From Gemmatimonadota bacterium (GTDB lineage: Bacteria; Gemmatimonadota; Gemmatimonadetes; Palauibacterales; Palauibacteraceae): DNA of 44,444 nucleotides. The stretch is taken from NCBI GenBank assembly GCA_039585915.1, contig JBDGUZ010000002.1, positions 1-44,444 of the forward strand, written 5' to 3'. Position numbers and translations under genes: made by a program. Under the pieces are notes generated by a model. It saw nothing but the letters and a program-made list of their open reading frames with translations. It was not told the origin of the DNA and made no database searches. Shown piece after piece: positions 25,586 to 41,748 of the stretch. The first letter of the stretch is position 1, and the number at the start of each line of letters is the position of its first letter.

Positions 25586-25604
25586 GTCCGAATCCAGTTT
25601 GCCG

Positions 25605-26141: not shown

Positions 26142-26323
26142 CGGCCTTCCGCGGGTGAAACGACCTTCCGGAGACGCGCTGGCTCGGGGATGTCCGGTCA
26201 CGGACGGGACGAATGTGCCACTTTGTCCTACTGTCGGATCTAACGATTCGCCGTAATTCATGACCATCCCGTTAACATGTTGTATTTGCAGCGCTTAAGG
26301 TACGAATTTGTCTCGGGCCGTTC

Positions 26324-26339
26324 TGGCACAAAAGATGCA
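26324..26339 (+). promoter_or_regulatory. Sigma-54 (-24/-12)-like promoter element upstream of korA
   Basis: TGGCACaaaagaTGCA matches TGGCAC-N5-TTGCA with exact GG-to-GC spacing. It sits in the AT-richer 309-nt intergenic region, about 110 nt upstream of the korA ATG, in the correct orientation. No enhancer-binding protein gene lies in the window, and a chance match is possible. Confidence 0.35.
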
Positions 26340-26450
26340 CCTACCCGGGGGGTTCTTCTTGCCCCGGACCCGGAAACGGCCGTACCACCGGGACGAAGAG
26401 ACACGATTGCCGACGACGATTGATGTGGAACGGAATAAGAGGAAGAGAAC

Positions 26451-28364
26451 ATGACGACGAATTCCCCTGTGACGGATACGGCGACTGAAGAGCGTCGCAC
26501 GACGGACGGGGTCGAGGTGTTCCGGGATCATCAGCACACGGTCGAAATCGTGTCGGATTCCGGAGAGGGCGCCCAGAAGTGCGGACAGATCTTCGGCGCG
26601 ATGAGCGCGAAGATGGGAAACGGCGTGTGGACGGTCGAGATCATCCCGGCCGAGATCCAGCCGCCTGCCCGCAGTCCGGCGGGCGCGAGCGGAATCCGCA
26701 TCCGGTTCGGCACCGACGAGATCACGAACTGGGGCAACAGGACGAACGTCTGCGTGGCGTTCAACGAGCAGGTCCTGCGCGCCCGACACGTTCTCGATGC
26801 GCTCGAGGAGGACGCGATTCTCCTGGTTGAGAACATGTGGAAGGACCATCGGGACGAGGACATCAGGGCCGAGTGGGTGACCGCGATGGACGAGCTGTCC
26901 GATAGCGGTTACCGGATCATCGAGGTCCCGATGGAAGAGCAGTGCCTGACGGTCGTGGACAACGCCCGCAAGGGCAAGAACATGTTCGCGCTGGGCCTGC
27001 TGTGCCGGATTTTCGACCGGGATCTGGACCTCGCGCGGGAGCAGATCGCGCACGCCTTCCGGACGAAGTCGGAAGAGGTCTACGAAACCAACGTGAAGCT
27101 GCTCGAACTCGGGTACTCCTGGGCCGCCGAAAACCTGGACTTCAGGGTCGACGTCCCGACGCGCCGCGCCGCCGAGGACATGGTTGTGATGAACGGCAAC
27201 CAGGCGCTCGCGTTCGGCGCCGTGGCCGCGGGCATGGAGCTCGCTGCCATGTACCCGATCACGCCGGCGACGTCGGTGTCACACCAGCTCGGCGAGATGT
27301 TCCACAGCTTCGGGGGGATCGTACACCAGGCGGAAGACGAGATCGCCGCGGCCGGCGTGTCAATCGGCGCCAGTTATTCCGGCAAGGTGGCTTTCACCAT
27401 CACCTCCGGTCCGGGTCTCGCCCTCAAGACCGAGTTCCTGGGTCTCGCGATCATGACGGAGATTCCACTGGTCGTGATCGACGTGCAGCGGGGCGGACCC
27501 TCGACCGGACTCCCGACGAAGGTCGAGCAGTCCGATCTGATTGCCGCGATCTTCGGACAGCCGGGTGACGCGCCACATGTCGTCATGGCGCCTGCGACGA
27601 TCGCGGGGTGCTTCCACTCGATGATCACGGCACGGAGGATCGCCGAGACTTTCCGCACGGTGGTGATCGTGCTGACGGACGCGAATCTCGCTACCGGGGT
27701 ACAGCCGTTCCCCAGGCCGAGTCTGGACCCGGCCTGGATGGGCTCGCGCCCCGACATGAGCCCGGTGCCCGAAGGCAAGCGTCCGTACGAATGGGATCCG
27801 AAAACGGGCCTGTCGCAACGATTCGTGCCCGGACAGCCGGGAGGCATGCACACGCTCACAGGACTGGCGCACGACGAGGAGAGCCACGTCGCCTATGCGT
27901 CCGCCGTCAACCAGCGCGCCTCCGCGATGCGGAGCCGCAAGCTCGCGGTTCTGCAGAGCACGCTGCGGCCTCCGAAGGTGAACGGGCCTGATTCGGGCGA
28001 CCTCCTGGTGGTCGGGTGGGGGTCTACCAAGGGCGCGATCGAGGAGGCGGTCGAGAATATGCGGGCCGAGGGCCTCGCGGTGTCCTCGCTGCATATCCGC
28101 TTTCTGTCGCCGCTCGAGCCGGGCCTGAAGGAGATCTTCCAGCGGTTCCGCAAGGTGATGACGGTGGAGATCAATTACAGCGATGATCCGGGCGACCCGT
28201 TCATTACCGATGAGAACCGCCGCCGCGGTCAGCTCGCCTGGCTTCTCCGGGCGAACACGCTGGTGGACGTGGACTGCTGGACACGTGTGCTGGGCGAGCC
28301 GCTCAGACCGGGCGTAATCGAGGACGTGATTCGAACGCATATGCCGAAGGGGGGTGCCGCGTGA
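26451..28364 (+). CDS. korA: 2-oxoacid (2-oxoglutarate):ferredoxin oxidoreductase, fused gamma-alpha subunit
   Basis: Gamma-like N-terminus (VEIVSDSGEGAQKCGQIFG) and alpha domain (GNQALAFGAVAAGMELAAMYPITPATS, ITSGPGLALK). The 637-aa length fits two-subunit KorAB-type OFORs. The SD-like GAGGAAG lies upstream. Confidence 0.9.
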   Translation: MTTNSPVTDTATEERRTTDGVEVFRDHQHTVEIVSDSGEGAQKCGQIFGAMSAKMGNGVWTVEIIPAEIQPPARSPAGASGIRIRFGTDEITNWGNRTNVCVAFNEQVLRARHVLDALEEDAILLVENMWKDHRDEDIRAEWVTAMDELSDSGYRIIEVPMEEQCLTVVDNARKGKNMFALGLLCRIFDRDLDLAREQIAHAFRTKSEEVYETNVKLLELGYSWAAENLDFRVDVPTRRAAEDMVVMNGNQALAFGAVAAGMELAAMYPITPATSVSHQLGEMFHSFGGIVHQAEDEIAAAGVSIGASYSGKVAFTITSGPGLALKTEFLGLAIMTEIPLVVIDVQRGGPSTGLPTKVEQSDLIAAIFGQPGDAPHVVMAPATIAGCFHSMITARRIAETFRTVVIVLTDANLATGVQPFPRPSLDPAWMGSRPDMSPVPEGKRPYEWDPKTGLSQRFVPGQPGGMHTLTGLAHDEESHVAYASAVNQRASAMRSRKLAVLQSTLRPPKVNGPDSGDLLVVGWGSTKGAIEEAVENMRAEGLAVSSLHIRFLSPLEPGLKEIFQRFRKVMTVEINYSDDPGDPFITDENRRRGQLAWLLRANTLVDVDCWTRVLGEPLRPGVIEDVIRTHMPKGGAA

Positions 28365-29311
28365 GCGCCCATAGCTGCTCTCTGCTGTATCCGGTCGAGG
28401 ATGACCATGAGTACACGATGTCCGACTACGAGGACGTGCAACCGCGGTGGTGTCCCGGGTGCGGCGATCTTTCCGTCCTCACCGCGGCCCAGCGCCTGCT
28501 CGCGGCCGAGCAGTTGAAGCCGGAGGAAACCGTCTTCGTGTCAGGGATCGGATGCTCCAGCCGGTTCCCTCACTACGTCAACTCATATGGGTTCCACGGA
28601 CTTCACGGACGGGCGCTGCCGGTGGCGACCGGGATCAAACTGAATCGGCCGGACCTGCACGTGTTCGTGGTGATGGGAGACGGTGACTGCACCTCCATCG
28701 GCGCGGCGCACTGGTTGCACGCGACGCGGTACAACGTGGACATGGTCGCCCTGATGATGGACAACAACATCTACGGCCTGACTAAGAAACAGACGTCGCC
28801 CACCACGCCGATGGGATACAAGAGCAATACGCAGCCGCTCGGGAGTTACCTCCCGGCGTTGAATCCGATCGAAGCGACGCTCGGAGTATCGAACGCCTCG
28901 TTCGTGGCGCAGACCGCGGAATGGATGCCGGCACACCTCTACGCGACGCTCCAGGCCGCGTATCAGCACAAGGGCTTCGCGTTCGTGCGCATTCTCCAAC
29001 GCTGCCCGGTGTTCACGGGAGATCTGTATAAGGATGCCGTTCGAAACCCGGACATGATCGAGATGCTCGAGCACCCGGACGGCGTCGAGGTGCCCGACTT
29101 ATACCAGATCTACGACAACGTGAACCGACACGATCCCCGGAACATTGACGCGGCGCGCGAGCTTGCAGAGAAGGTCGACCGCATTCGCGTCGGCGTGTTC
29201 TTCAGGGATGAGAGCCGTCCGCGCTACGAGGAGACGAGGCACCTGCCGCTCCACACTACGGACGAGAAGATCGGAATCCTGAACCAAGAGCTCGACAAAT
29301 ATGCCGTCTGA
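28361..29311 (+). CDS. korB: 2-oxoacid:ferredoxin oxidoreductase beta (TPP-binding) subunit
   Basis: RWCPGCGDLSVL, GIGCSSRF and the GDG TPP motif (VVMGDGDCTSIG). There is a 4-nt overlap with korA. Confidence 0.9.
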   Translation: MSAHSCSLLYPVEDDHEYTMSDYEDVQPRWCPGCGDLSVLTAAQRLLAAEQLKPEETVFVSGIGCSSRFPHYVNSYGFHGLHGRALPVATGIKLNRPDLHVFVVMGDGDCTSIGAAHWLHATRYNVDMVALMMDNNIYGLTKKQTSPTTPMGYKSNTQPLGSYLPALNPIEATLGVSNASFVAQTAEWMPAHLYATLQAAYQHKGFAFVRILQRCPVFTGDLYKDAVRNPDMIEMLEHPDGVEVPDLYQIYDNVNRHDPRNIDAARELAEKVDRIRVGVFFRDESRPRYEETRHLPLHTTDEKIGILNQELDKYAV

Positions 29312-30311
29312 CGAACGGACTAGAGACGCGCTCGCCGCCGTGGCGACTGCGCGAGATGACTATCGGTCGGCCCTGGTGGGCACGGCAGACCAACTCCGCG
29401 GGCTCCTGCTGGCGCAGGCCGGCGATGCCGACACCGAACTGGACCGTGCCGCCGCGGAACTCGGAACCTTCGCTGAAGGCCGCATCGACGTGGAGCGGTT
29501 CGCGTCACTGGTCGCCTCGGACGAAGTTCTGGATGAGGCAAGTCGCGGGCACCTGCAGCGCGCTGTCGAGACGCTCGAGTCCCTGGCCGCCGCGGGCGAC
29601 GACGTGTTCGTCGCGCAGGTTCCGGCTGGCGGTGACCTGAGCGAGACCGTCGCTCGCGCGCTCGGCGAGGCGGGCCGCGCCTTCGGGGCCGCGCGCACGG
29701 CTGAGCTCGCCCGCACCGGGCGATTCAAAGCCGACGAACACCGTCGGTGGATCGATCATTTCCCGCCGGTCCAATGGAGTCGGAACGAGCGAGAGATCGC
29801 TCCGCCTCTTGTCGTGCTCCTGCGCGGCGAAGAGTTCCGGGCTGGGGGACTGTCAGACTTTCTCGATGGATCGCAGAAGATCGTGCTGATCGTCGAGGGC
29901 AAGTCGCCGGCGGCGGCACTCGTCCGCTGCCTCACCCCGGGCGTGCACGTGCTACAGACCGATAATCCCGCCTCCCTGGCCGGCATCGACAGGACCGAGG
30001 GCCCGGCGATCGCCGCCCTCGTCCCCTCGGATGCGGCCCGATTCGAGCACCGGCCGGGCAGCGGTGGACCCGCCAGACTCAGGCTCACGGTCGATGCGGT
30101 TCCCGAGGAGGAACCCCGGCGAGCGATCGGCCGGATCAGCGCGTTTCAGCAGGCGGAGGAGCTTCGACAGCTTCGCGCGCTCGCCGGGGCCAGTGGCAGC
30201 ATCGCCAGATCCGCCGGTGATGGGGGCGCCGCGCCGGACGGGACCCCGGCGACCGACGCGGACGTTCTGGCCGCCTGGATCCTCGGTCAGGGCGACCAGG
30301 GAGCCGCATGA
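29301..30311 (+). CDS. Hypothetical Ala/Asp/Glu-rich soluble protein, no recognisable motif
   Basis: High third-position GC and coding-like composition. It has an 11-nt overlap with korB and an ATGA overlap with rnfB. There is one Cys, no TM segment and no cofactor motif. Confidence 0.6.
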   Translation: MPSDERTRDALAAVATARDDYRSALVGTADQLRGLLLAQAGDADTELDRAAAELGTFAEGRIDVERFASLVASDEVLDEASRGHLQRAVETLESLAAAGDDVFVAQVPAGGDLSETVARALGEAGRAFGAARTAELARTGRFKADEHRRWIDHFPPVQWSRNEREIAPPLVVLLRGEEFRAGGLSDFLDGSQKIVLIVEGKSPAAALVRCLTPGVHVLQTDNPASLAGIDRTEGPAIAALVPSDAARFEHRPGSGGPARLRLTVDAVPEEEPRRAIGRISAFQQAEELRQLRALAGASGSIARSAGDGGAAPDGTPATDADVLAAWILGQGDQGAA

Positions 30312-31156
30312 CCGCTCAGGCCATCCTGGGGTCGGTCGCGATTCTCGGCGGAGTCGGGTTGACGTTCGGGACACTCATCGCGCTCGCGAACCGAAAGCTC
30401 CGTGTATGGGAAGACCCGCGCATCGAGTCCGTGACCGACATCCTTCCCGGCGCGAATTGCGGGGCGTGCGGCTACGCGGGCTGCCGTGCGTTCGCCGAGG
30501 CGGCCGTAGAGGGCATCGTGGCGCCCGCCGGATGTACCGTGATGGGCGAGGGTGAGGTAGACGATGTGGCGGCAATGATCGGTGTGGACGCGGGAGAGGC
30601 GGTGAAGAGGGTCGCGCGACTTCTGTGCGCGGGCGGCTCGCAGGTTGCACCGAGGAAAGCGATCTACGACGGCCTCGAGAGTTGTGCCGCCGCTATAGCT
30701 GTGAGCGGAGGTGGGAAGGCCTGTTCGTGGGGCTGTGTCGGCCTGTCGGACTGCGCTGTGTCATGCGATTTCGATGCGATCCGCATGAATGAATTCGATC
30801 TTCCGGAAGTTGATATCGAGCTGTGTACGGCTTGCGGCGACTGCGTTGACGCGTGCCCGTTGGACCTGTTCATACTGATGCCGCTCGATCACAAGCTGAT
30901 CGTTCAGTGCAAGAATCTACTCGAGGGCGATGCCGCCACCGATGTGTGCGCCGTCGCATGTGATGCCTGCGGGCGCTGCGCGGCTGACGCGCCGGATGTC
31001 GTGGAAATCCGGAACGGCCTCGCCGTCGTCGACTATGAAGCAATTGATCGCGCCACGTTAGCGGCGACCGCCCGCTGTCCCACCGGAGCGATCCAGTGGG
31101 TCGAGGGGGCGCAGGAGCTGCGGCTGGAGCCCGTAATGGCAGGGAGCGAGACGTAA
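30308..31156 (+). CDS. rnfB: Rnf complex subunit B (polyferredoxin)
   Basis: N-terminal TM helix, CGACGYAGC motif, and several 4Fe-4S motifs (CTACGDCVDACP, CDACGRC, ARCPTGAI). Confidence 0.9.
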   Translation: MTAQAILGSVAILGGVGLTFGTLIALANRKLRVWEDPRIESVTDILPGANCGACGYAGCRAFAEAAVEGIVAPAGCTVMGEGEVDDVAAMIGVDAGEAVKRVARLLCAGGSQVAPRKAIYDGLESCAAAIAVSGGGKACSWGCVGLSDCAVSCDFDAIRMNEFDLPEVDIELCTACGDCVDACPLDLFILMPLDHKLIVQCKNLLEGDAATDVCAVACDACGRCAADAPDVVEIRNGLAVVDYEAIDRATLAATARCPTGAIQWVEGAQELRLEPVMAGSET

Positions 31157-34100
31157 TGATCAAGCGCAAGGACAAGAAGACGGATACGCCGAAAGCCGAA
31201 GTCCGTTACCCGGGCATCCAGACGGCAATGGACGGCAGCGCCGCTGTTGTCGCGATGGAAACGGCTGGAAGCGAAGCCGCCGGAGCCTATCCGATCACGC
31301 CGTCGACCCAAATGGGCGAGGGGTGGGCCGCGGCGCGGGCTGCCGGGAAGATGAACGTGAACGGGCGCCCGCTCCTGTTCTTCGAGCCCGAGGGCGAGCA
31401 CGCGGCGGCCGGCGTCACTGCCGGGATGAGCATGACAGGGCTCCGGGCGACGAATTTCTCGAGCGGCCAGGGCATCGCCTACATGCACGAGTCGCTGTAC
31501 GCGGCGGTCGGAAAGCGCCTGACCTACGTACTCAACGTCGCCGCTCGCGCGATGACCAAGCATGCGCTGAACGTGCATGCAGGCCACGATGACTATCACG
31601 CGGTCGATGACACCGGGTTCTTCCAGCTGTTCGCCAAGGACGTGCAGGGGATCGCCGACCTCAACCTGATTGCGCACCGGATCGCCGAACTCGCGCTGAA
31701 TCCGGGGCTGGTGGCGCAGGACGGGTTTCTCACGAGCCACGTGATCGAGACGCTGCGGCTGCCGGAACGGGAGCTGATCCGCGAGTATCTCGGTGACCCG
31801 GCCGATATCATCGATTCGCCGACTCCGGCCCAGGTCCTGACGTTCGGCGACACCCGGCGGCGGATTCCCGAGATGTTCGATCTCGACTATCCGGCCCTGC
31901 TCGGTTCCGTGCAGAACCAGGACAGCTACATGCAGGGCGTGGCGGCGCAGCGCCCATTTTACTTCGATCACGTCGAGGCCCTGACGGACCAGGCGATGCG
32001 GGAGTACGAGAAACTCACCGGTCGGAAATACGAACGAGCGACCGGCTACCGCCTGGATGACGCCGAGTGGGTGCTTGCCGGGCAGGGCTCGGTCGTGTCA
32101 AACGCCGAGGCAGTAGCCGACTTCCTGCGGGACGAGCGGGGACTCAAGGTCGGGGTGCTGGACGTGACGATGTTTCGTCCCTTCCCCACCGATCGGATCG
32201 CCGAACTGCTGCGCGGCAAGAAGGGCGTGACCGTGCTCGAGCGCACGGATCAGCCCCTGGCCGTTGACAATCCGCTGCTCAAGGAGGTCCGGGCGGCAAT
32301 GGCGAAGGCCGTCGAGAATGGCCGGGCCAACGGCGGGCGTGCCCCGCACCCCGACATTCCTGCGATCCGCGCCAACGACGTGCCCGAGTTCTACTCGGCC
32401 GGATTTGGCTTCGGGAGCCGTGACCTCCAGCCCGCGGATCTGGTGTTGTCGATCGACAACATGCTGCCGGACGGGGAAGGCCGTCGGTTCTACTACCTCG
32501 GCATCGATTTCGTGCGCGAGGGCACGCACCTGCCGAAGCTCGAGATCTGGCAGGAGAAGCTGCTCGAAGCCTACCCTGACCTCGCCGGAGGGGCGGCCGT
32601 TCCGGAGCAGAACCTCAACCTTCTCCCGAAGAACTCCATCGCGATCCGCATCCATTCCGTCGGTGGCTGGGGCGCGATCACGATGGGCAAGAACATCGTG
32701 CTCACGTCGCACGAACTGGCCGGCTACCACGTCAAGGCCAATCCCAAGTACGGCTCCGAGAAGAAGGGACAGCCCACGACGTTCTACGGAATTCTGTCTC
32801 CCGAGCCGGTCCGTCTGAACGGCGAGTTGAAGAACGTCGACATCGTTCTGTCTCCGGATCCGAATGTGTTCCGAAATTCGAGCCCGCTCGCGGGAATGGA
32901 GCCGGGTGGCGTGTTCGTGATCCAGAGCGAGCGGAGCGCCGAGGAGCTGTGGGCTTCCTTCCCGCCGGCCGCGCGCCAGATGATCCGGGAGAACGACATC
33001 AAGGTATTTGCCCTCGACGCGTTCAAGATCGCGTCCGAGGAGGCGTCCGACGCGGAACTCAGATACCGGATGCAGGGCACGGCGTTTCTTGGCGCGTTCT
33101 TCCGGGTGTCTCCCGTGATGGAGCGCGAGGGGCTCGACGAGGAAGCGCTGTTCGCTGGAATCCGGGCACAGATCGAGAAGAAGTTCGGCCATCTCGGCGA
33201 ACGGGTCGTCGAAGACAACGTCCGCGTGATCCGCCGAGGGTTCGACGAGCTGTTCGAAGTCGAGGTTCCGGATGAGGCGGTCGTCGGCAGCGAAGTGATG
33301 GCCGAAGCGGCCGTAGGTACGATTCCGACCCTGCTGGACAACCCGAACCAGATGCCCGGGATCGGGAACCAGGGCCGGTTCTGGGAGCAGGTGTGCTCGC
33401 TGTGCGGAATCGACCAGGATGTGATCGCCGATCCGTTCGCCGCGATCAGCGCGATCCCGGCCGCTACGAGCACGGTGCGAGACATGTCGGACATCCGGTT
33501 CGAAGTGCCGGATTTTGTTGCCTCGAAGTGCACGGGCTGCTCGCAGTGCTGGACGCAGTGCCCCGATGCAGCGATTCCAGGCGTCGTGAACTCGGTCGAA
33601 GACGTGATCACCACGGCTATCCGTACAGCCCAGAACGGAGAGTCGCTCGATCGCATTCAATCGGTGTCGGGCAATCTCGCCCGCGAGGCGCGAAAAGTAC
33701 TGAAGGCAGTTCCCTTCACGACGTTCGGCGAGACGGTCTCCACGGCCTACAAGAACATGGCCGAGAAGCTGCCGTGGGATGCGGAACGCAAGAAGGCGCT
33801 GGACGAGGAGTTCTCGGCCGTGTACTCGGTTCTGGCCGACTTTCCGCTCGCAAAGACCGTCCCGTTCTTCGATGTACCGGAAGGCAAGGAGAAAGGCGCC
33901 GGGGGTCTGCTCTCGATTACCGTGAACCCCGAGGCCTGCAAGGGCTGCAACATCTGCGTGGACGTGTGCGCGGATGGGGCCCTGGTCACCGCCCACCAGA
34001 CCGACGATCTGCTCGACCAGCTGCGCCGTAACTGGGTCACGTGGGAAAACCTGCCAGACACCGCCGACCGGTTCATCAACATTCGGAGCATCGAAGAAGG

Positions 34101-36267: not shown

Positions 36268-36305
36268 TGCCAGCGTGACTCACGGCCACCGCTGACGGGG
36301 AGACG

Positions 36306-37652
36306 ATGCTCAGCGACCTGTTCCGCTCCGATACGTTCCGGCACGGAGTGCACCCGCCGGAACGGAAGTCATATACCGAGTCGATCAAGATCCGGCGGAT
36401 GCCGTTCCCGGATGAGATCGTCCTGCCGCTGCGTCAGCACGCGGGACGTCCGGCGATTCCGCTCGTCAAACGGGGAGACCGCGTCGAGCGGGCTGACAAG
36501 GTAGGGGAAGCCGACGGCTTCATTTCGGTCCCGATTCATACGTCGGCCGCCGGAACGGTCAGGGACGTCACTTTGTGGCCGCACCCCGACGGCAGCATGG
36601 CGGAAAGCGTCGTGATCGAGGTCGACCGGTGGTCTCCCCAGGTTCCACGCCCCCGGATCGTGGCCCAATGGGAAGGCCTCGAGCCGGACCAGGTCGTGAA
36701 GGAAGTGCAGAAAGCGGGCGTCGTGGGTCTCGGCGGCGCCGCCTTCCCGACGCACGTCAAGCTCCTGCCGCCGAAGGACATGCAAGTCCATACGCTGATC
36801 GTCAACGGGGCCGAGTGCGAGCCGTACCTGACGACGGACCACCGCACGATGGTGGAGTTTTCGGAGCGGGTGCAGTTCGGAATCCGGATCATGATGAAAG
36901 CGCTCGGGGTTGAGCGGACGATCATCGGGGTCGAGAAGAACAAGCCCGACGCGATCGAGCGTCTTCGAGCCACGCTGCCCGACGACCTCGACGTCACGGT
37001 TCTCCCCCTGACGGTGAAGTACCCGCAGGGCGCTGAGAAAATGCTGATCGACGTCGTCACCGGACGCGAAGTGCCTTCGGGAAAGCTCCCGATGAACGTC
37101 GGCGTGGTAGTGCAGAACGTGGGATCGATCGCCTGCATCGCCGAGATCTTCGACACGGGGCAGCCGCTGATCGAGAGGGTCGTGACCGTCACCGGTCCGG
37201 GAGTCCGGCGACCGTCGAACCTCCTGGTTCCGGTAGGAGCGAAGCTGCGCGACGTGCTCGAGTTCTGTGACGGCCTGACGGACGACGCGTCGCAGATCAT
37301 CTTCGGCGGCCCGATGATGGGGGCGGCAACGCCTGACCTCGAGACACCGTTGATCAAAGGGACCACGGGCGTCGTGGTGCTGACGGAGGCCGAGGCCCGG
37401 CCGCCGACCGTGCACCCCTGCATCCACTGCGGCCGCTGCCTCGAATCCTGCCCGGTGTTCCTCAACCCCGCGCTGCTCGGATCGCTGGCCCAGGCCGGGC
37501 GGTTCGAGGAGATGGAGGATTCGCACCTGATGGACTGCATGCTGTGCGGCTCCTGCTCCTACGTCTGCCCGTCGCACATTCCGCTGTCGCAGATGTTCGC
37601 GTTGGGCAAGAACATGCTGCGACGCCAGAAGACGAAGGAGGCGGCGGCGTGA
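36306..37652 (+). CDS. rnfC: Rnf complex subunit C
   Basis: GLGGAAFPTHVKL, IVNGAECEPYLT, and two 4Fe-4S motifs CIHCGRCLESCP and CMLCGSCSYVCP. Confidence 0.93.
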   Translation: MLSDLFRSDTFRHGVHPPERKSYTESIKIRRMPFPDEIVLPLRQHAGRPAIPLVKRGDRVERADKVGEADGFISVPIHTSAAGTVRDVTLWPHPDGSMAESVVIEVDRWSPQVPRPRIVAQWEGLEPDQVVKEVQKAGVVGLGGAAFPTHVKLLPPKDMQVHTLIVNGAECEPYLTTDHRTMVEFSERVQFGIRIMMKALGVERTIIGVEKNKPDAIERLRATLPDDLDVTVLPLTVKYPQGAEKMLIDVVTGREVPSGKLPMNVGVVVQNVGSIACIAEIFDTGQPLIERVVTVTGPGVRRPSNLLVPVGAKLRDVLEFCDGLTDDASQIIFGGPMMGAATPDLETPLIKGTTGVVVLTEAEARPPTVHPCIHCGRCLESCPVFLNPALLGSLAQAGRFEEMEDSHLMDCMLCGSCSYVCPSHIPLSQMFALGKNMLRRQKTKEAAA

Positions 37653-38695
37653 GCGGCCCGGCCCCGGGTTCCGACTCCTCGCGGGAGGAAGAGACCCTCC
37701 TGCGGATTGCCGCTTCCCCGCACGTTCATTCGCCCCATTCCACGCCGCGCATCATGTGGACGGTGACGATCACGTTGATCCCGCTCGTGGCGGCAGCCGT
37801 GTACTGGTTCGGGCCGAGCGCGCTGCTGGTGATCGGAGCGGCGACCGCCGGTGCGGTGATTACGGAACGGATATTCGGACGCCGCGGAGCCCTCGGGGAT
37901 GGATCCGCGGCGATCACGGGCATCCTCCTCGGTTTGATCCTCCCCCCTGGATTCCCGATGTGGATGGCGTTCGTCGGAGGAGCGTTCGGAATCGGATTCG
38001 GGAAGCTGATATTCGGCGGTCTCGGGCAAAACGTATTCAACCCGGCACTGCTCGGACGGGCGTTCCTGCAGGCTGCATTCCCGATCGCGATCACGACCTG
38101 GCCGGCGGAGCAGGCTTCCCGGTGGGCTCTGCGGGGCGACAATTTCGCCCTGCCCCTGATGTCGCCGAATACGGCGGACCTCGTGACAGCCGCCACCCCA
38201 CTCGGGGCCTGGAAGTTCGAAGGTACCGGAACCGAAGTTCTGGACCTGCTGATCGGACGCACGGGTGGCTCTCTCGGTGAGACGTCGGCGTTGCTGATTC
38301 TCGCCCTCGGAGTTTTCCTGGCCGTGAAGAAGTACCTCGACTGGCGGATCCCGGCCTCGATCCTGCTTACTGTCGCAGCGTTCTCGGGTCTGCTGTTCCT
38401 GATCGACGGCTCGCGGTTCCCCAGTCCGATGTTCATGCTGTTCTCCGGCGGGCTGATGCTGGGCGCGGTGTACATGGCGACCGACCTGGTCACATCGCCC
38501 GTCACGCCGCGTGGGGCATGGATTTTCGGAATCGGGATCGGCCTTCTCGTCGTGCTGATCCGGGTGTGGGGAGGCCTGCCAGAGGGCGTAATGTACGCGA
38601 TCCTGCTCATGAACGCGCTGGTTCCGTTCATCAATCGCGCCACTCAGCCTCGCGTGTTCGGACACGAACGGAAGAGAGAGGAGGCGGCAGCGTGA
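37649..38695 (+). CDS. rnfD: Rnf complex subunit D
   Basis: The GTG start overlaps the rnfC stop (GTGA). It is a polytopic membrane protein with ASPHVHS near the N-terminus and a TAATPL flavinylation-type motif. Confidence 0.9.
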   Translation: MSGPAPGSDSSREEETLLRIAASPHVHSPHSTPRIMWTVTITLIPLVAAAVYWFGPSALLVIGAATAGAVITERIFGRRGALGDGSAAITGILLGLILPPGFPMWMAFVGGAFGIGFGKLIFGGLGQNVFNPALLGRAFLQAAFPIAITTWPAEQASRWALRGDNFALPLMSPNTADLVTAATPLGAWKFEGTGTEVLDLLIGRTGGSLGETSALLILALGVFLAVKKYLDWRIPASILLTVAAFSGLLFLIDGSRFPSPMFMLFSGGLMLGAVYMATDLVTSPVTPRGAWIFGIGIGLLVVLIRVWGGLPEGVMYAILLMNALVPFINRATQPRVFGHERKREEAAA

Positions 38696-39471
38696 AGGAG
38701 CTTCCTCAGGTCACTGACAGCACGGGAACGGAGCAGATGCCGGACGGACCCTCGGGCGGGCCGCCGGATGGACCGCCGCAGGCTCCGGAACGACCGGCAA
38801 CATCTTCCGCTCGCCTGATCACTACGCTGGCCACGGCCGGCGGCCTGGCGGGCCTGGTGATCGTGCTGGTGTTCGGCTGGGCGAACCCTCGGATCCAGGC
38901 GTACAGGGCGAAGGTCCTGCGCGAGGCGATTCAGGTAGTCCTGGACAGTCCCGAGACCGTCCGGACCTATTACGTAGTCGACGGAGCGCTGTCCGAGACT
39001 CCGGCCGCCGGGGCTGACACGATCACGGCGGAGAAGGTCCACCTCGGTCTCGACGCGGAAGGGCAGCCGATCGGCTACGCGATCACGGGCCAGGAGCCGG
39101 GCTTTCAGGACTACATACTGGTCATTTTCGGCTACGACCCCGACGCCGACCGCGTGCTCGCCATGAAAGTCCTCGAGAGTAAGGAGACACCCGGCCTGGG
39201 TGACAAGATTTTCAAGGACACGACGTTCGTGGCAGGATTCCGGCAGGCCGCCGCGCCGCTCGAGGGCGTGAAGATAGGGCGCGGAAGCGGAAGCGAGAAC
39301 GAGGTGGACATGATCACCGGCGCGACGATTTCGTCACGCACGGTGATCGGGATCATCAACCACCGGATCGAGGCGCTCGATCCGGTGCTCGGAGCCGCCA
39401 ACGTGGCAGCGACCGCCTCAACGGCGGCTGCCGCGAGCGAGGCGCTCGCCACGCGCAAGGACGGATCATGA
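38692..39471 (+). CDS. rnfG: Rnf complex subunit G (FMN-binding)
   Basis: The GTG start overlaps the rnfD stop (GTGA). It has one TM helix, ETPGLGDKI and the ITGATISSRTV flavinylation motif. The N-terminal Pro/Gly-rich extension is unusually long. Confidence 0.88.
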   Translation: MKELPQVTDSTGTEQMPDGPSGGPPDGPPQAPERPATSSARLITTLATAGGLAGLVIVLVFGWANPRIQAYRAKVLREAIQVVLDSPETVRTYYVVDGALSETPAAGADTITAEKVHLGLDAEGQPIGYAITGQEPGFQDYILVIFGYDPDADRVLAMKVLESKETPGLGDKIFKDTTFVAGFRQAAAPLEGVKIGRGSGSENEVDMITGATISSRTVIGIINHRIEALDPVLGAANVAATASTAAAASEALATRKDGS

Positions 39472-40133
39472 AAGCGACAACGCCGCAACAGGACTTGATC
39501 CGTGGGATCTGGAAGGAAAACCCGGTGCTCGTCCAACTCCTGGGCCTGTGCCCGGCGCTGGCCGTGACGAATACCGTGGCGAACTCCCTCGCAATGGGAA
39601 TCGCGACCTTCTTCGTGCTGGTCGGATCGAGCCTGCTCGTCTCAACGTTCAAGAAGGTGATCCCGCACGAAGTCCGGATTTCCGCCTACATCCTGATCAT
39701 CGCCACGTTCGTGACGATCGCCGACCTCGTGCTGGCTGCCGTGGTACCGCTGATTCACAAGGAACTCGGGGCGTTCATCGCATTGATCGTCGTGAACTGC
39801 ATGATCCTGGGCCGGCAGGAGGCGTTCGCCTCCAGGCGGCCAATCGGCAGGTCGCTGCTCGACGCGGTCGGCACCGGCACCGGATTCATGATCGCGTTGC
39901 TGATGATGGGCACGTTCCGGGAGATTCTCGGCAACGGCTCGATCCTCGGCGTCAGCCTGTTCGGAGATGGGTTCGAGCCCTGGGTGATCTTCATTCTTCC
40001 GCCGGGCGGATTCCTCACGCTCGGGTTCATCCTGCTCGCCTTCGGCTGGTGGGAGGAGCGGAAGTCAGAGACGATCCGGGTTCGCCAGTGGCCTCACGGC
40101 GTCGCGACTCCTTCCAGGGAGGAGGCGGCGTAA
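39468..40133 (+). CDS. rnfE: Rnf complex subunit E
   Basis: NPVLVQLLGLCPALAVT, a polytopic membrane protein, with an ATGA overlap with rnfG. Confidence 0.92.
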   Translation: MKATTPQQDLIRGIWKENPVLVQLLGLCPALAVTNTVANSLAMGIATFFVLVGSSLLVSTFKKVIPHEVRISAYILIIATFVTIADLVLAAVVPLIHKELGAFIALIVVNCMILGRQEAFASRRPIGRSLLDAVGTGTGFMIALLMMGTFREILGNGSILGVSLFGDGFEPWVIFILPPGGFLTLGFILLAFGWWEERKSETIRVRQWPHGVATPSREEAA

Positions 40134-40708
40134 TGGGCGAGTTGTTCTGGATCCTGATCTCGGCGATGCTGATCAGCAACTTCACGCTGAGCCTGTTCCT
40201 CGGTCTCTGTCCGTTCATGGGCGTGTCCGCCCGGGTCGAAACGGCGCTGCGGATGGGACTCGCCAACATCTTCGTGCTGGTGATCACATCGATATGCGCG
40301 TGGGTGCTGAATACGTATGTCCTGCCCCATGCCCCATACCTGCGAGTCATCTCGTTCATCGTCGTGATCGCCTCGCTGGTGCAGATCGTGGAGATGGCGA
40401 TCAAGAAGATCAGCCCGACCCTGTTCAGGGAGCTCGGGATCTTCCTTCCACTGATCACGACGAACTGCGCGATCCTCGGATTCGCCATCTTTCAGACGAA
40501 CCGCGGGTACGACTTCCTCGAGGGGCTGTCATTCGCGATCGGCGCGGGGCTCGGCCTCACGCTCGCCCTCGTGTTGATGGCTTCGATCCGAGAGACCTCG
40601 GAGCTGTCCAGCATTCCGGCGGTGGCTCGAAACATGGGCCTCGTCCTGATTATCGCCGGCAGTCTTTCCCTCGCGTTCATGGGGTTCGCGGGGTTGTTCA
40701 GTACCTGA
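40133..40708 (+). CDS. rnfA: Rnf complex subunit A
   Basis: ATG overlaps the rnfE TAA (TAATG). NFTLSLFLGLCPFMGVS, a polytopic membrane protein of 191 aa. Confidence 0.92.
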   Translation: MGELFWILISAMLISNFTLSLFLGLCPFMGVSARVETALRMGLANIFVLVITSICAWVLNTYVLPHAPYLRVISFIVVIASLVQIVEMAIKKISPTLFRELGIFLPLITTNCAILGFAIFQTNRGYDFLEGLSFAIGAGLGLTLALVLMASIRETSELSSIPAVARNMGLVLIIAGSLSLAFMGFAGLFST

Positions 40709-40730
40709 GCCCGCAGGAGGCGACTGGACC

Positions 40731-40919
40731 TTGGAGACCGCCCTGGGCATACTGGGACTCGCCGCGCTGTTCGTGGCGTTCGGGATCTTCCGGCCCGGCT
40801 CGCACCGGGGGTGCGGTGGAGACTGCGGCGGATCCTGTTCGTCCGACCCGGCTTCGTGCGACGCAATGCCGCGCGCCAACGATTCGCTGCCGGGGATGTC
40901 TGCCGGGAAGGAGAGCTGA
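40731..40919 (+). CDS. Small membrane protein with Cys-rich tail (FeoB-associated Cys-rich-like architecture)
   Basis: TTG start with AGGAGG 10 nt upstream. One TM helix (ALGILGLAALFVAFGIF) is followed by CGGDCGGSCSS..C. Third-position GC is high. Confidence 0.55.
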   Translation: METALGILGLAALFVAFGIFRPGSHRGCGGDCGGSCSSDPASCDAMPRANDSLPGMSAGKES

Positions 40920-41140
40920 TGGACAAGCACCTCGCCTACTGCTCCGCGTGCGACCGCCAGGTCGAGGTCGTCGTGAATCGGGGCGCTCGCACGAACCCCA
41001 CCACCGGGGAGAAGGAAGACGAAGTCATCTGCCTGGAGATGGGTGAGTCGTGCACGGGCTCAATGTGTCCGATGTGCGACGTGCCTGCCGATGACATGAA
41101 GCAGAGCCTCGAGCGACTCCGCGAGTCGGAAGGAAGCTGA
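40919..41140 (+). CDS. Small Cys-rich (zinc-ribbon-like) protein
   Basis: ATGA overlap with the previous ORF. CxxC (CSAC) ... C..C ... CxxC (CPMC), 73 aa. The track ORF 40811..41140 is the same frame extended upstream. Confidence 0.5.
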   Translation: MDKHLAYCSACDRQVEVVVNRGARTNPTTGEKEDEVICLEMGESCTGSMCPMCDVPADDMKQSLERLRESEGS

Positions 41141-41147
41141 TTCTCAG

Positions 41148-41429
41148 ATGCAGGTAGAGCCGATTGATGTCATTCCGCTGGTGGGGATCGTCATGGGATC
41201 CCTTACCGTGCTCGTGCCGGTCAGCCTGATTGCGCTCAGGTTTGCGATCAAACCGATCGCGGAGGCGATCGCGATATCGCGCTCGGGCACACCGCCGGCC
41301 GAGTTAAATATCATGAAGGAGCGCATCGCCCTGCTCGAGCAGCAGGTGTCGGGCATCGATTCGGAAGTCAATCGGATCTCCGACGCCGTGGACTTCCAGG
41401 ACCGTCTGCTGAAGTCTGACGGTCCATAG
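41148..41429 (+). CDS. Small single-TM protein with C-terminal coiled coil (PspB-like architecture)
   Basis: ATG lies 7 nt after the upstream stop. One TM helix (VIPLVGIVMGSLTVLVPVSLIAL) is followed by MKERIALLEQQVSGIDSEVNRI. Confidence 0.55.
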   Translation: MQVEPIDVIPLVGIVMGSLTVLVPVSLIALRFAIKPIAEAIAISRSGTPPAELNIMKERIALLEQQVSGIDSEVNRISDAVDFQDRLLKSDGP

Positions 41430-41466
41430 CCATAATCTGAGCCGCACACACGATCCGAAGAACTGA

Positions 41467-41748
<282 letters not shown>

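What the first reader, a model, noticed from the sequence alone, without database searches (positions are those of the whole stretch)
26324..41429. 15-kb translationally coupled ferredoxin supercluster: korAB - unknown - rnfB - giant PFOR - rnfCDGEA - three small ORFs
Seen in sequence: thirteen same-strand ORFs run in series, and most junctions are overlaps. These are korA/korB 4 nt, korB/unknown 11 nt, unknown/rnfB ATGA, rnfB/PFOR TAATG, rnfC/D GTGA, rnfD/G GTGA, rnfG/E ATGA and rnfE/A TAATG. The remaining gaps are under 40 nt. Established knowledge: KorAB and PFOR are the two 2-oxoacid:ferredoxin oxidoreductases, and Rnf is the ion-translocating ferredoxin:NAD+ oxidoreductase. The order rnfB-C-D-G-E-A is the Bacteroidota/Chlorobi-type order. 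Inference: the operon hard-wires both ferredoxin-generating decarboxylases to the ferredoxin-consuming ion pump. In the oxidative direction, pyruvate and 2-oxoglutarate oxidation would yield NADH plus an ion gradient. In reverse, the gradient would drive ferredoxin reduction for the two reductive carboxylations of a reverse TCA cycle. I do not know of a described operon in which a PFOR gene interrupts the rnf genes.
Basis: partly seen in the sequence, partly recalled or inferred. Interest (0 to 1): 0.7.

Follow-up and report, generated by a model that had tools for sequence, protein, structure and literature searches.

The report
PFOR built into an Rnf operon
A 15-kb operon in a Gemmatimonadota genome places two ferredoxin-reducing 2-oxoacid oxidoreductases inside and next to the genes of the ferredoxin-oxidising Rnf ion pump, and this layout is conserved across the phylum and in other bacteria but I found no description of it in the literature.

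Summary
Thirteen same-strand ORFs (26451-41429) are present, and all eight claimed overlaps are exact. The genes are korA, korB, a 336-aa gene, rnfB, a 1703-aa PFOR, rnfCDGEA and three small ORFs.

This is not a one-off. Among the 80 best Gemmatimonadota loci, the ten-gene order holds in 38 of 39 loci long enough to test. The core rnfB-giant PFOR-rnfCDGEA-small Cys-rich ORF also occurs in Gammaproteobacteria, namely Methylobacter sp. YRD-M1, Shewanella canadensis and Sedimenticola. A related layout occurs in Riflebacteria.

New points:
- The giant PFOR keeps all catalytic motifs. It also carries a C-terminal single-[4Fe-4S] ferredoxin domain on a roughly 55-65-residue disordered linker.
- The "unknown" gene is a cofactor-less, truncated PFOR paralogue.
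- One Methylococcales clade has a catalytically dead PFOR in the same slot.

Best reading: a dedicated module in which PFOR and KorAB feed Rnf through the tethered ferredoxin. It probably runs oxidatively (2-oxoacid to NADH plus ion gradient). Direction and physical association are untested.

I found no paper describing the arrangement, so I class it as a new variant of a known kind.

The parts
26142..26450 (+). Intergenic leader and presumed promoter region upstream of korA
   Evidence: A 309-nt gap follows the phosphoribosyltransferase gene (25521-26141). A ribosome-binding site (aagaggaagag) lies before ATG 26451. There is no sigma-70 consensus hit, so the promoter is inferred only.
26451..28364 (+). 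korA: alpha subunit (fused gamma+alpha) of a two-subunit 2-oxoacid:ferredoxin oxidoreductase, 637 aa
   Evidence: TIGR03710 scores 522.9 bits, above the cut-off of 482.75. Pfam domains POR, POR_N and PFOR_II are present. The best solved relative is Magnetococcus OGOR 6N2N, E 6.6e-77.
28361..29311 (+). korB: TPP- and [4Fe-4S]-binding beta subunit, 316 aa
   Evidence: Pfam TPP_enzyme_C and PFO_beta_C are present. TIGR02177 scores 240.7 bits, just under the cut-off of 261.9. The GTG start overlaps the korA stop.
29301..30311 (+). It has no conserved Cys and no TPP motif.
   Evidence: There are no Pfam or NCBIfam hits. A family of 299 proteins was found; the named members are Gemmatimonadota. hhalign against the ~850-aa PFOR-C-terminal family gives probability 99.0, E 8.7e-18, residues 18-287. 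A direct profile comparison to the giant PFOR places it on residues 1154-1376 with the TPP loop deleted, at E 3.5e-4. The AF2 model has pLDDT 83.8, and Foldseek against the PDB gives no hit below E 0.001. It lies upstream in 52 of 52 loci.
30308..31156 (+). rnfB: electron-input subunit with an N-terminal TM helix, an FeS domain and a polyferredoxin, 282 aa
   Evidence: PF04060 is present together with Fer4 families. NF041836, NF005504 and TIGR01944 all match below their cut-offs. It has 20 Cys, including C51/C54/C59/C76 and a CxxCxxCxxxC motif at 173.
31156..36267 (+). Giant PFOR-type 2-oxoacid:ferredoxin oxidoreductase, 1703 aa
   Evidence: The domain order is POR_N, PFOR_II, POR, two Fer4 motifs, TPP_enzyme_C and Fer4_13. 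The best solved relative is Moorella PFOR 6CIN, E 6.6e-86. Catalytic motifs are intact: YPITPS, Glu81, Arg131, C1006/C1009, C1117, GDG...YSNTGGQ at 1208-1246, and C1321. Family-specific inserts lie at about 810-920 and about 1020-1110.
35173..35856 (+). PFOR C-terminal extension: a folded alpha/beta subdomain plus a long helix (aa 1340-1567)
   Evidence: In the AF2 model, pLDDT is about 86-94 for fragment residues 41-130, and there is a helix at 148-198. The whole C-terminal extension (aa 1340-1703, which includes the ferredoxin domain) finds 618 cluster representatives at E<1e-30. These include ~850-aa and 1400-1690-aa proteins.
35857..36015 (+). Disordered Ala/Pro/acidic linker (aa ~1568-1620)
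   Evidence: AF2 pLDDT is about 29-39 over fragment residues 229-295. The composition is rich in A, V, D, P and E. The sequence is not conserved across the family, although a linker is always present.
36016..36264 (+). Tethered single-[4Fe-4S] ferredoxin domain (aa ~1621-1703; Cys1632, 1635, 1638, 1674)
   Evidence: Pfam Fer4_13 matches. The four Cys are invariant in the family. Foldseek gives D. africanus ferredoxin I 1FXR with probability 1.00, TM 0.75 normalised to the target, and rmsd 1.1 A over 53 columns. Other single-cluster ferredoxins follow.
36306..37652 (+). rnfC: NAD(H)- and FMN-binding subunit with two [4Fe-4S] clusters, 448 aa
   Evidence: TIGR01945 scores 516.4 bits, above the cut-off of 245.95. 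Pfam RnfC_N, Complex1_51K and SLBB are present. CxxCxxCxxxC motifs lie at 372 and 411.
37649..38695 (+). rnfD, 348 aa (GTG start)
   Evidence: TIGR01946 scores 306.7 bits, above the cut-off of 207. The flavinylation-type motif is DLVTAATPL at 177-185, a G-to-A variant of SGAT.
38692..39471 (+). rnfG, 259 aa (GTG start)
   Evidence: PF04205 FMN_bind is present. TIGR01947 scores 82.6 bits, below the cut-off of 102. The FMN attachment motif TGAT is at 209.
39468..40133 (+). rnfE, 221 aa
   Evidence: TIGR01948 scores 225.9 bits, above the cut-off of 213.4. Cys28 and Cys111 are present.
40133..40708 (+). rnfA, 191 aa
   Evidence: PF02508 is present. TIGR01943 scores 218.8 bits, just under the cut-off of 229.3. 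Cys26 and Cys112 are present.
40731..40919 (+). s62: a small protein with one TM helix and a Cys cluster (GCGGDCGGSCSS), TTG start
   Evidence: An ORF of this kind (40-81 aa) follows rnfA directly in 47 of 49 Gemmatimonadota loci, mostly with a 4-nt overlap. Comparable 59-69-aa ORFs follow rnfA in L082, L083, L085, L086, L089, L090 and L091. The match to PF12669 is weak, at 22.1 bits against a cut-off of 27.
40919..41140 (+). s73: a Cys-rich 73-aa protein (CxxC...C...C...CxxC), zinc-ribbon- or rubredoxin-like
   Evidence: tblastn finds homologues downstream of rnfA in many loci. In L085 the homologue follows an ApbE gene. There is no Pfam hit.
41148..41429 (+). s93: a 93-aa protein with a TM helix and a coiled coil
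   Evidence: It is conserved only in the closer relatives L003, L004, L006 and L007. There is no Pfam hit. Its membership of the system is the weakest of all parts.

Best explanation
Shown. The region is one densely packed gene string in a Gemmatimonadota chromosome. It encodes a complete Rnf ferredoxin:NAD+ oxidoreductase (RnfBCDGEA). It encodes a two-subunit KorAB-type 2-oxoacid:ferredoxin oxidoreductase. It encodes a 1703-aa PFOR-type enzyme that retains every catalytic and cluster-binding motif I checked. That PFOR ends in a ferredoxin domain of the D. africanus FdI type, attached by a disordered linker of about 55-65 residues. The string also holds a cofactor-less truncated PFOR paralogue between korB and rnfB, and a small Cys-rich membrane protein after rnfA.

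Inferred mechanism. The PFOR, and probably KorAB, form a dedicated electron-input module for this Rnf. The 2-oxoacid is decarboxylated at TPP. Electrons pass along the three PFOR clusters to the tethered ferredoxin domain. That domain swings to the polyferredoxin part of RnfB. Rnf then reduces NAD+ at RnfC and exports H+ or Na+. The net reaction would be an ion-pumping 2-oxoacid:NAD+ oxidoreductase that needs no free ferredoxin.

The truncated paralogue would act as a non-catalytic adaptor, for instance docking KorAB. The small Cys-rich protein would be a maturation factor or accessory subunit, comparable to NqrM in NQR.

The chemistry is reversible. I judge the oxidative direction more likely in these mostly heterotrophic organisms.
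For: - Gene identities and cofactor motifs are established.
- All junctions are overlaps or gaps of at most 38 nt.
- The order is conserved across Gemmatimonadota at 62-92% PFOR identity: 66/67, 60/63, 52/52 and 38/39 testable loci.
- The core rnfB-giant PFOR-rnfCDGEA-small ORF recurs in Methylobacter sp. YRD-M1, Shewanella canadensis, Sedimenticola and an unnamed 446-kb contig. It keeps the rnfBCDGEA order there, whereas PMC4014512 gives rnfABCDGE as the usual proteobacterial order.
- The C-terminal domain matches stand-alone single-cluster ferredoxins, with D. africanus FdI (1FXR) the best hit. By my own knowledge, FdI is the partner of D. africanus PFOR.
- The domain follows a linker of low predicted order, and its four Cys are invariant in the family.
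- In one Methylococcales clade the protein in the rnfB-rnfC slot has lost the TPP motif, YPITPS and the proximal-cluster Cys. It keeps both ferredoxin-domain clusters and the C-terminal ferredoxin domain. A role at Rnf therefore seems to be under selection independently of catalysis.
- The rnfB gene stays next to a family member even where rnfCDGEA is absent (L081, L088).
- L054 carries this cluster plus a second plain rnf operon, which suggests the PFOR-linked Rnf is specialised.
- A hint for the oxidative direction: in the Methylobacter sp. YRD-M1 locus (L089) and the metagenome locus L088, the unit lies divergent to the pyruvate-forming oxaloacetate decarboxylase Na+ pump.
Against: - There is no transcript, protein-interaction or activity data. 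The single transcript and the physical complex are both inferred from gene order.
- A 38-nt gap separates the PFOR gene from rnfC.
- A few loci break the pattern: L068 lacks rnfB and rnfC, while L053 and L047 lack an adjacent rnfC.
- Family members occur without rnfCDGEA: L084 in Myxococcota and L088.
- The AF2 confidence for the ferredoxin domain itself is only 50-70, and the model was made without the rest of the protein.
- The homology of the 336-aa gene to the PFOR is strong only through an intermediate family. The direct comparison gives probability 37.5.
- The direction of electron flow, the ion specificity and the substrates of both oxidoreductases are unknown.
- I could not check whether the source genome also has PDH/ODH or reverse-TCA genes.
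Confidence: 0.55

Rival explanations
1. Same hardware, reverse operation. Rnf uses the ion gradient and NADH to reduce the tethered ferredoxin. That drives pyruvate synthase and 2-oxoglutarate synthase for CO2 assimilation or anaplerosis, as in a reverse TCA cycle or mixotrophy.
For: - Rnf is reversible and supplies reduced ferredoxin in nitrogen fixers, according to the review PMC12174285.
- KorA's closest solved relative is the OGOR of Magnetococcus. By my own knowledge, that organism uses the reverse TCA cycle.
- Integration of OGOR genes with electron-supply complexes in reverse-TCA clusters has a precedent in tubeworm symbionts (PMC6315080).
- Several carriers are autotrophic or methanotrophic Gammaproteobacteria: Sedimenticola, Beggiatoa and Chromatiales.
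Against: - The window holds no ATP-citrate lyase, citryl-CoA or fumarate reductase genes. Its neighbours are housekeeping genes.
- The comparative papers on Gemmatimonadota that I read mention only Calvin-cycle genes and say nothing of reverse TCA.
- The oxaloacetate decarboxylase neighbour in the two loci L088 and L089 points to pyruvate formation rather than consumption of acetyl-CoA.
Confidence: 0.2
2. Co-regulation only. The genes are clustered so that ferredoxin producers and the consumer are made together, but the enzymes are separate and communicate through ordinary soluble ferredoxin. On this view the C-terminal ferredoxin domain is merely an internal extra cluster or a stabilising or oxygen-protecting extension.
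For: - Functional coupling of PFOR and Rnf through free ferredoxin is the textbook situation in anaerobes (PMC12174285).
- Operons often group pathway partners that do not form complexes.
- No interaction data exist.
- The extension could act like the C-terminal domain of D. africanus PFOR, which stabilises that enzyme against oxygen. This last point is from my own knowledge.
Against: - The PFOR gene sits between rnfB and rnfC rather than at an end of the operon. It stays there across phyla, even after losing catalysis.
- rnfB remains paired with family members where rnfCDGEA is missing.
- No free ferredoxin gene is present in the cluster.
- The C-terminal domain is separated from the core by a long disordered linker. 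That is unlike a fixed internal cluster.
Confidence: 0.18
3. The giant protein is mainly a structural or electron-wire subunit of this Rnf, as in the pseudoenzyme lineages. KorAB would be the physiologically important electron donor, and PFOR catalysis in Gemmatimonadota would be ancestral baggage or of minor importance.
For: - Catalytically dead homologues keep the slot and the Fe-S modules.
- In L086 the same 13-gene layout has intact korAB next to a giant protein that lacks the catalytic Glu and YPITPS.
- In Riflebacteria two degenerate PFOR-like proteins flank rnfB, downstream of korAB.
Against: - In Gemmatimonadota, and in the gammaproteobacterial members that keep the motifs, every catalytic motif I checked is invariant down to 49% identity. 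That argues for selection on catalysis.
- The gammaproteobacterial loci I examined have no korAB next to the unit.
Confidence: 0.07

Closest known systems
Canonical Rnf operons: rnfBCDGEA of Bacteroidota/Chlorobi, rnfCDGEAB of Acetobacterium/Clostridium, rnfABCDGE of Proteobacteria
   Same: All six subunits are present with the expected cofactor motifs. The gene order B-C-D-G-E-A is that of the Chlorobi/Bacteroidetes lineage.
   Different: A 5.1-kb oxidoreductase gene lies between rnfB and rnfC. korAB and a PFOR remnant lie upstream. A conserved small Cys-rich membrane ORF follows rnfA. The reviews I read (PMC12174285, PMC4014512) list RnfH, RnfX/Y and endonuclease III as extras, but no PFOR.
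Homodimeric PFOR of Desulfovibrio africanus and Moorella thermoacetica (PDB 1B0P, 6CIN; NifJ family TIGR02176) with its free ferredoxin
   Same: The domain order is the same, as are the TPP motif, the catalytic Glu/Arg/Thr and the three [4Fe-4S] sites. The C-terminal domain resembles D. africanus ferredoxin I.
   Different: The protein is about 500 aa longer. It has an insert of about 100 aa between the two ferredoxin-domain clusters, an insert of about 80-90 aa in domain VI, and a C-terminal extension of about 350 aa that ends in the ferredoxin domain. It scores 397 bits against the equivalog cut-off of 911. The acceptor ferredoxin is fused rather than free.
Two-subunit 2-oxoglutarate:ferredoxin oxidoreductase KorAB (Magnetococcus marinus OGOR 6N2N; from my own knowledge also Mycobacterium and Sulfolobus-type OFORs)
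   Same: The alpha subunit is a gamma+alpha fusion and the beta subunit binds TPP and one cluster. There is no delta ferredoxin subunit.
   Different: Here it is translationally coupled to a PFOR-derived adaptor-like gene and to rnfB. Its substrate is unknown.
Methanosarcina Rnf with the multihaem cytochrome MmcA encoded in the rnf cluster
   Same: It is a precedent for an extra redox protein encoded with rnf and acting as a lineage-specific electron entry or exit module (title and abstract of bioRxiv 10.1101/2022.07.20.500911, listed).
   Different: There the extra subunit is a cytochrome at the output side of an archaeal Rnf. Here it is a TPP enzyme with a ferredoxin domain at the input side.
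Reverse-TCA clusters of tubeworm symbionts and Thioflavicoccus, with korABCD interspersed with flxABCD-hdrABC (PMC6315080)
   Same: A 2-oxoacid:ferredoxin oxidoreductase is genetically interleaved with the complex proposed to exchange electrons with it.
   Different: The partner complex is different (Flx-Hdr) and the Kor has four subunits. The rnf genes are only nearby and are not interrupted.
Pyruvate:NADP+ oxidoreductase (PNO) of Euglena and Cryptosporidium (from my own knowledge, not tested here)
   Same: A PFOR is fused at its C terminus to its electron-acceptor module.
   Different: The fused module is an NADPH-cytochrome P450 reductase-type flavoprotein. It is not a ferredoxin and it is not linked to an ion pump.

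Membership tests
Rnf complex (ion-translocating ferredoxin:NAD+ oxidoreductase) | Six subunits RnfA, B, C, D, E and G encoded together | tested here: met
   RnfC, RnfD and RnfE score above the NCBIfam cut-offs. RnfA, RnfB and RnfG fall just below theirs but have the diagnostic Pfam domains.
Rnf complex (ion-translocating ferredoxin:NAD+ oxidoreductase) | Cofactor sites: two [4Fe-4S] plus the FMN/NADH domain in RnfC; flavinylation Thr in RnfG and RnfD; two Cys each in RnfA and RnfE for the membrane [2Fe-2S]; TM helix, FeS domain and polyferredoxin in RnfB | tested here: met
   RnfC has CxxCxxCxxxC at 372 and 411. RnfG has TGAT at 209. RnfD has the variant TAAT at 180. RnfA has C26/C112 and RnfE has C28/C111. 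RnfB has 20 Cys.
Rnf complex (ion-translocating ferredoxin:NAD+ oxidoreductase) | Ferredoxin:NAD+ activity coupled to Na+ or H+ transport | not testable with these tools
   This needs membrane vesicles or the purified complex.
PFOR / NifJ (single-chain pyruvate:ferredoxin oxidoreductase, TIGR02176) | Domain order I-II-III-ferredoxin domain-VI on one chain | tested here: met
   The Pfam order is POR_N, PFOR_II, POR, Fer4 twice, TPP_enzyme_C. The protein aligns collinearly with 6CIN and 1B0P.
PFOR / NifJ (single-chain pyruvate:ferredoxin oxidoreductase, TIGR02176) | TPP-binding GDG...N motif, catalytic Glu, substrate Thr/Arg, and Cys ligands of three [4Fe-4S] clusters | tested here: met
   Present are G1207-DG...YSNTGGQ1246, E81, T48, R131, C792-C802, C928-C938, and C1006/C1009/C1117/C1321. 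All are invariant across the family alignment.
PFOR / NifJ (single-chain pyruvate:ferredoxin oxidoreductase, TIGR02176) | Score above the curated equivalog cut-off | tested here: not met
   The score is 396.6 bits against a cut-off of 911.35. I therefore file it as a distinct PFOR-type subfamily, not as NifJ.
PFOR / NifJ (single-chain pyruvate:ferredoxin oxidoreductase, TIGR02176) | Pyruvate as substrate | not testable with these tools
   Only conservation of the general 2-oxoacid-binding residues could be checked.
Two-subunit 2-oxoacid:acceptor oxidoreductase (OAFO/KorAB, TIGR03710 + TIGR02177) | Fused gamma-alpha subunit plus a TPP/[4Fe-4S] beta subunit, with no delta subunit | tested here: met
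   The alpha subunit scores 522.9 bits, above 482.75. The beta subunit scores 240.7 bits, just under 261.9, but has TPP_enzyme_C and PFO_beta_C. No delta gene is present. The relative 6N2N matches at E 6.6e-77.
Two-subunit 2-oxoacid:acceptor oxidoreductase (OAFO/KorAB, TIGR03710 + TIGR02177) | 2-oxoglutarate specificity | not testable with these tools
   The name kor is provisional.
Single-cluster [4Fe-4S] ferredoxins (Fer4_13; D. africanus FdI type), for the PFOR C-terminal domain | CxxCxxC...C ligand pattern and the small ferredoxin fold | tested here: met
   C1632, C1635, C1638 and C1674 are invariant. Fer4_13 matches at E 1.1e-4. Foldseek gives 1FXR with probability 1.00 and TM 0.75 normalised to the target. 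The model confidence for this domain is only moderate.
NqrM / FeoB-associated Cys-rich membrane proteins, for s62 | A single TM helix followed by a Cys cluster, and a family HMM match | tested here: inconclusive
   The architecture fits, and an ORF of this kind follows rnfA in 47 of 49 loci. PF12669 scores only 22.1 bits against a cut-off of 27, and no NqrM model matched.

The most novel reading that the evidence does not exclude
The giant PFOR is a bona fide peripheral subunit of a specialised Rnf. Together they would form an ion-pumping pyruvate (2-oxoacid):NAD+ oxidoreductase supercomplex. In it, a ferredoxin domain on a flexible tether replaces diffusible ferredoxin. KorAB would dock through the PFOR-derived 336-aa adaptor. 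In some lineages the PFOR has decayed into a pure Fe-S scaffold subunit. This would be a previously unrecognised, horizontally mobile respiratory module. It would operate in aerobic to microaerobic bacteria: Gemmatimonadota, methanotrophs and sulfur oxidisers.
Probability: 0.4. Interest if true: 0.8.

Novelty: new variant of a known kind. Interest (0 to 1): 0.62.

Why it matters
Rnf is normally described as taking electrons from free ferredoxin. A conserved operon that embeds a PFOR carrying its own tethered ferredoxin would change that picture. It would mean that some bacteria channel electrons from 2-oxoacid oxidation straight into an ion pump. They would then gain a share of proton- or sodium-motive force that a pyruvate or 2-oxoglutarate dehydrogenase complex discards.

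Many of the carriers are regarded as aerobes or microaerobes. They include abundant soil and marine Gemmatimonadota and methane-oxidising Methylobacter.

The module also offers a natural series from active enzyme to pseudoenzyme in one operon slot. It supplies a candidate Rnf maturation factor. It can be tested directly, because cultured carriers exist.

Tried and rejected
- Foldseek of the 336-aa protein model against the PDB gave no hit below E 0.001, so the fold gave no functional clue.
- The direct profile comparison of the 336-aa family with the giant PFOR family was weak (probability 37.5). Homology became convincing only through the ~850-aa intermediate family.
- The promoter and terminator consensus scans were uninformative.
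- Rfam found no RNA element in or before the cluster. Its only hit in the window was RNase P RNA elsewhere.
- My first read of L054 as an exception was wrong. It holds the full cluster plus a second rnf operon.
- Three apparent 'no adjacent rnfB' cases (L015, L019, L062) were artefacts of overlapping HSP ends.
- All ten allowed literature searches, and targeted reads of Gemmatimonadota, Rnf and methanotroph papers, found no description of the arrangement. The Biegel 2011 review is not held.
- I could not check cultured Gemmatimonas, Gemmatirosa or Longimicrobium, because the single genome-collection scan kept only the 80 best loci, all of them MAGs.
- I did not pursue the taxonomic labels Akkermansiaceae, Armatimonadota, Thermoanaerobaculia, Dehalococcoidia and Planctomycetota on five loci. 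With 63-77% identity to the window PFOR and the same synteny, they look like binning errors, but this is unverified.

Full report
**Observation.** The window has about 64% G+C. From 26451 to 41429 it carries thirteen + strand ORFs. A script confirmed every start, stop and junction. The overlaps are korA/korB GTGA, korB/next gene 11 nt, next gene/rnfB ATGA, rnfB/PFOR TAATG, rnfC/D GTGA, rnfD/G GTGA, rnfG/E ATGA and rnfE/A TAATG. The other junctions are +38, +22, -1 and +7 nt. Consensus scans found no promoter, and terminator-like hairpins were at chance level, with none at a junction. Flanking genes are housekeeping: fusA, rhomboid, ddl, mutS, an ECF sigma/anti-sigma pair, M16 peptidases, RNase P RNA and a phosphoribosyltransferase.

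**Gene identities.** Pfam and NCBIfam identify the following.
- A two-subunit 2-oxoacid:acceptor oxidoreductase. The alpha subunit scores 522.9 bits on TIGR03710, above the cut-off. The beta subunit has TPP_enzyme_C and PFO_beta_C.
- RnfB, RnfC, RnfD, RnfG, RnfE and RnfA.
- A 1703-aa protein with the PFOR domain order and an extra C-terminal Fer4_13 domain.

The Rnf cofactor sites are present. These are two cluster motifs in RnfC, TGAT in RnfG, the variant TAAT in RnfD, and two Cys each in RnfA and RnfE. KorA's nearest solved relative is Magnetococcus OGOR 6N2N. The PFOR's nearest solved relative is Moorella PFOR 6CIN.

**The giant PFOR.** Against solved PFORs it is collinear, with three additions.
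- About 100 residues between the two ferredoxin-domain cluster motifs.
- About 80-90 residues in domain VI.
- About 350 residues at the C terminus.

It scores only 397 bits against the NifJ equivalog cut-off of 911, so it belongs to a separate subfamily. All catalytic and cluster-binding positions I could map are present and invariant across the family. These are YPITPS, Glu81, Arg131, GDG...YSNTGGQ and the Cys ligands of three clusters.

An AlphaFold model of residues 1340-1703 shows a confident alpha/beta subdomain and a long helix. It then shows a stretch of about 65 residues with pLDDT near 30, rich in Ala, Pro and acidic residues. A small terminal domain follows. Foldseek matches that terminal domain to stand-alone single-cluster ferredoxins. 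The best match is D. africanus ferredoxin I, with probability 1.00 and rmsd 1.1 A over 53 columns. Its four Cys are invariant. The enzyme therefore appears to carry a ferredoxin of the type it would normally reduce, on a flexible tether.

**The 'unknown' gene.** The 336-aa product has no Pfam or NCBIfam match. It has 299 homologues, and the named ones are Gemmatimonadota. Its model is confident (pLDDT 83.8), but no PDB fold match was found.

The C-terminal extension of the PFOR retrieves 618 cluster representatives at E<1e-30. Their lengths cluster near 1400-1690 aa and near 850 aa. One 863-aa member lies between korB and rnfB in another genome. It aligns to PFOR residues 1149-1703 at 30% identity but lacks the TPP loop.

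A profile of the 336-aa family matches the ~850-aa family with probability 99.0 and E 8.7e-18. It maps onto PFOR residues about 1154-1376 with the TPP loop deleted. The gene is therefore a truncated PFOR paralogue without Cys ligands or a TPP motif. In Riflebacteria and Myxococcota the same slot holds 1400-1565-aa degenerate PFOR-like proteins with C-terminal ferredoxin domains.

**How common it is.** The PFOR has a very large family at 62-92% identity, named only generically in Gemmatimonadota, Palauibacterales and Longimicrobiaceae MAGs. A scan of one genome per species found 397 loci encoding relatives. In the 80 best loci (corrected with 66):
- rnfB is adjacent in 66 of 67 testable loci;
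- rnfC is adjacent in 60 of 63;
- korA-korB-336-aa is upstream in 52 of 52;
- the full ten-gene order holds in 38 of 39.

A small ORF with one TM helix and a Cys cluster follows rnfA in 47 of 49 loci. In more distant Gemmatimonadota an ApbE flavin-transferase gene sits between the s62 and s73 homologues.

Outside the phylum, the core rnfB-giant PFOR-rnfCDGEA-small ORF occurs in Methylobacter sp. YRD-M1, Shewanella canadensis, a Sedimenticola MAG and an unnamed 446-kb contig. Named relatives also include Methylomarinum, Methyloprofundus, Beggiatoa, Ca. Venteria, Chromatiales and SAR324. These loci use the B-C-D-G-E-A order. PMC4014512 gives rnfABCDGE as the usual proteobacterial order. This fits transfer of the module as a unit.

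**Active and dead versions.** The Gemmatimonadota proteins and the gammaproteobacterial proteins of Methylobacter, Methylomarinum, Shewanella, Sedimenticola, Venteria, Beggiatoa and SAR324 keep all motifs at 49-67% identity to the window protein. A Methylococcales subclade, including a sponge symbiont, has lost YPITPS, the catalytic Glu, the GDG/NTGGQ motif and the proximal-cluster Cys. It keeps both ferredoxin-domain clusters and the terminal ferredoxin domain, and one of its members still lies between rnfB and rnfC. A further lineage (L086) has the identical 13-gene layout with a giant protein that lacks the catalytic Glu. This pattern suggests the protein has a role at Rnf that does not depend on its catalysis.

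**Mechanism.** My preferred reading is a dedicated electron-input module for Rnf. A 2-oxoacid is oxidised at PFOR, and probably also at KorAB. Electrons reach the tethered ferredoxin domain, which docks on the polyferredoxin part of RnfB. Rnf then reduces NAD+ and exports ions.

The genes, motifs, fused domain and synteny are shown. The physical association, the single transcript, the role of the 336-aa protein as an adaptor, the role of s62 as a maturation factor (by analogy with NqrM) and the direction of flow are inferred. Two points favour the oxidative direction weakly. The carriers' lifestyle is heterotrophic. In the Methylobacter sp. YRD-M1 locus L089 and the metagenome locus L088, the neighbour is a pyruvate-forming oxaloacetate decarboxylase Na+ pump. 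The reverse, ferredoxin-generating direction cannot be excluded.

**Literature.** Ten full-text searches and targeted reading of recent Gemmatimonadota genomics papers, the 2025 RNF/NQR review, the NQR-origin paper and methanotroph and Beggiatoaceae genome papers found no description of a PFOR gene within an rnf operon. A marine methanotroph genome note lists Rnf and PFOR genes separately. The library lacks most subscription journals, so absence is not proof.

**Verdict.** The functional link is well backed by comparative evidence. The arrangement is common rather than unique, the 'unknown' gene is explained, and the reverse-TCA idea is untested. All building blocks belong to known families. 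What is new is their conserved integration, the tethered ferredoxin and the pseudoenzyme derivatives. I class this as a new variant of a known kind, of moderate to high interest, and testable in cultured carriers.

Noticed in passing
window 41431-41745 (+): This is a 3' remnant of thiC. It translates to ...[59 protein letters not shown]... and is preceded by a stop codon. The relative L007 has a ~1.6-kb thiC-like region at the same place after the cluster (20470-22075, two overlapping ORFs). The window seems to have lost the 5' ~1.3 kb. This is notable because Palauibacterales were described as thiamine producers.
   Followed up: partly
window 20957-21334 (-): Bacterial RNase P RNA class A, 266 bits. 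The + strand ORF 20995-21666 that overlaps it is probably not a gene.
   Followed up: no
window 40731-40919; also the ORF after rnfA in 47 of 49 Gemmatimonadota loci and in L082, L083, L085, L086, L089, L090 and L091: A 40-81-aa ORF with one TM helix and a Cys cluster almost always follows rnfA directly, often with a 4-nt overlap. It is a candidate seventh Rnf gene or maturation factor, comparable to NqrM of NQR. Only a weak match to PF12669 was found.
   Followed up: partly
L082 10001-14905 (P0279); also P0356, P0410, P0428: A Methylococcales subclade, including a sponge symbiont, has a giant PFOR-like protein that has lost the TPP motif, YPITPS, the catalytic Glu and the proximal-cluster Cys. 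The protein keeps its ferredoxin modules, so it is a PFOR-derived pseudoenzyme. In P0279 (locus L082), the only member whose gene context I examined, the gene lies between rnfB and rnfC.
   Followed up: partly
L089 5259-8776 and L088 5229-8793: In the Methylobacter sp. YRD-M1 locus (L089) and in the metagenome locus L088, the rnfB-giant PFOR unit is divergently adjacent to the oxaloacetate decarboxylase Na+ pump genes (gamma, alpha, beta). This suggests a sodium-based route from oxaloacetate to pyruvate to acetyl-CoA.
   Followed up: no
L054 21424-25130: One Gemmatimonadota MAG carries the full kor-PFOR-rnf cluster and, about 1.5 kb downstream, a second plain rnfBCDG... operon without a PFOR.
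   Followed up: no
L085 19953-20954: In a closed 5.78-Mb contig, an ApbE flavin-transferase gene lies between the s62 and s73 homologues. The extra ~1.2 kb seen before s73 in many distant loci fits the same insertion. The window lacks ApbE at this spot.
   Followed up: partly
L083 4398-9095 and 9986-14497: A Candidatus Riflebacteria contig has two degenerate PFOR-like genes flanking rnfB. The first (1565 aa) carries two tandem C-terminal ferredoxin domains. The second (1503 aa) lacks a C-terminal ferredoxin domain.
   Followed up: no
L005, L037, L046, L068, L077: Five loci with 63-77% PFOR identity and Gemmatimonadota-type synteny are labelled Akkermansiaceae, Armatimonadota, Thermoanaerobaculia, Dehalococcoidia and Planctomycetota. 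These are probably binning errors in the public MAGs.
   Followed up: no
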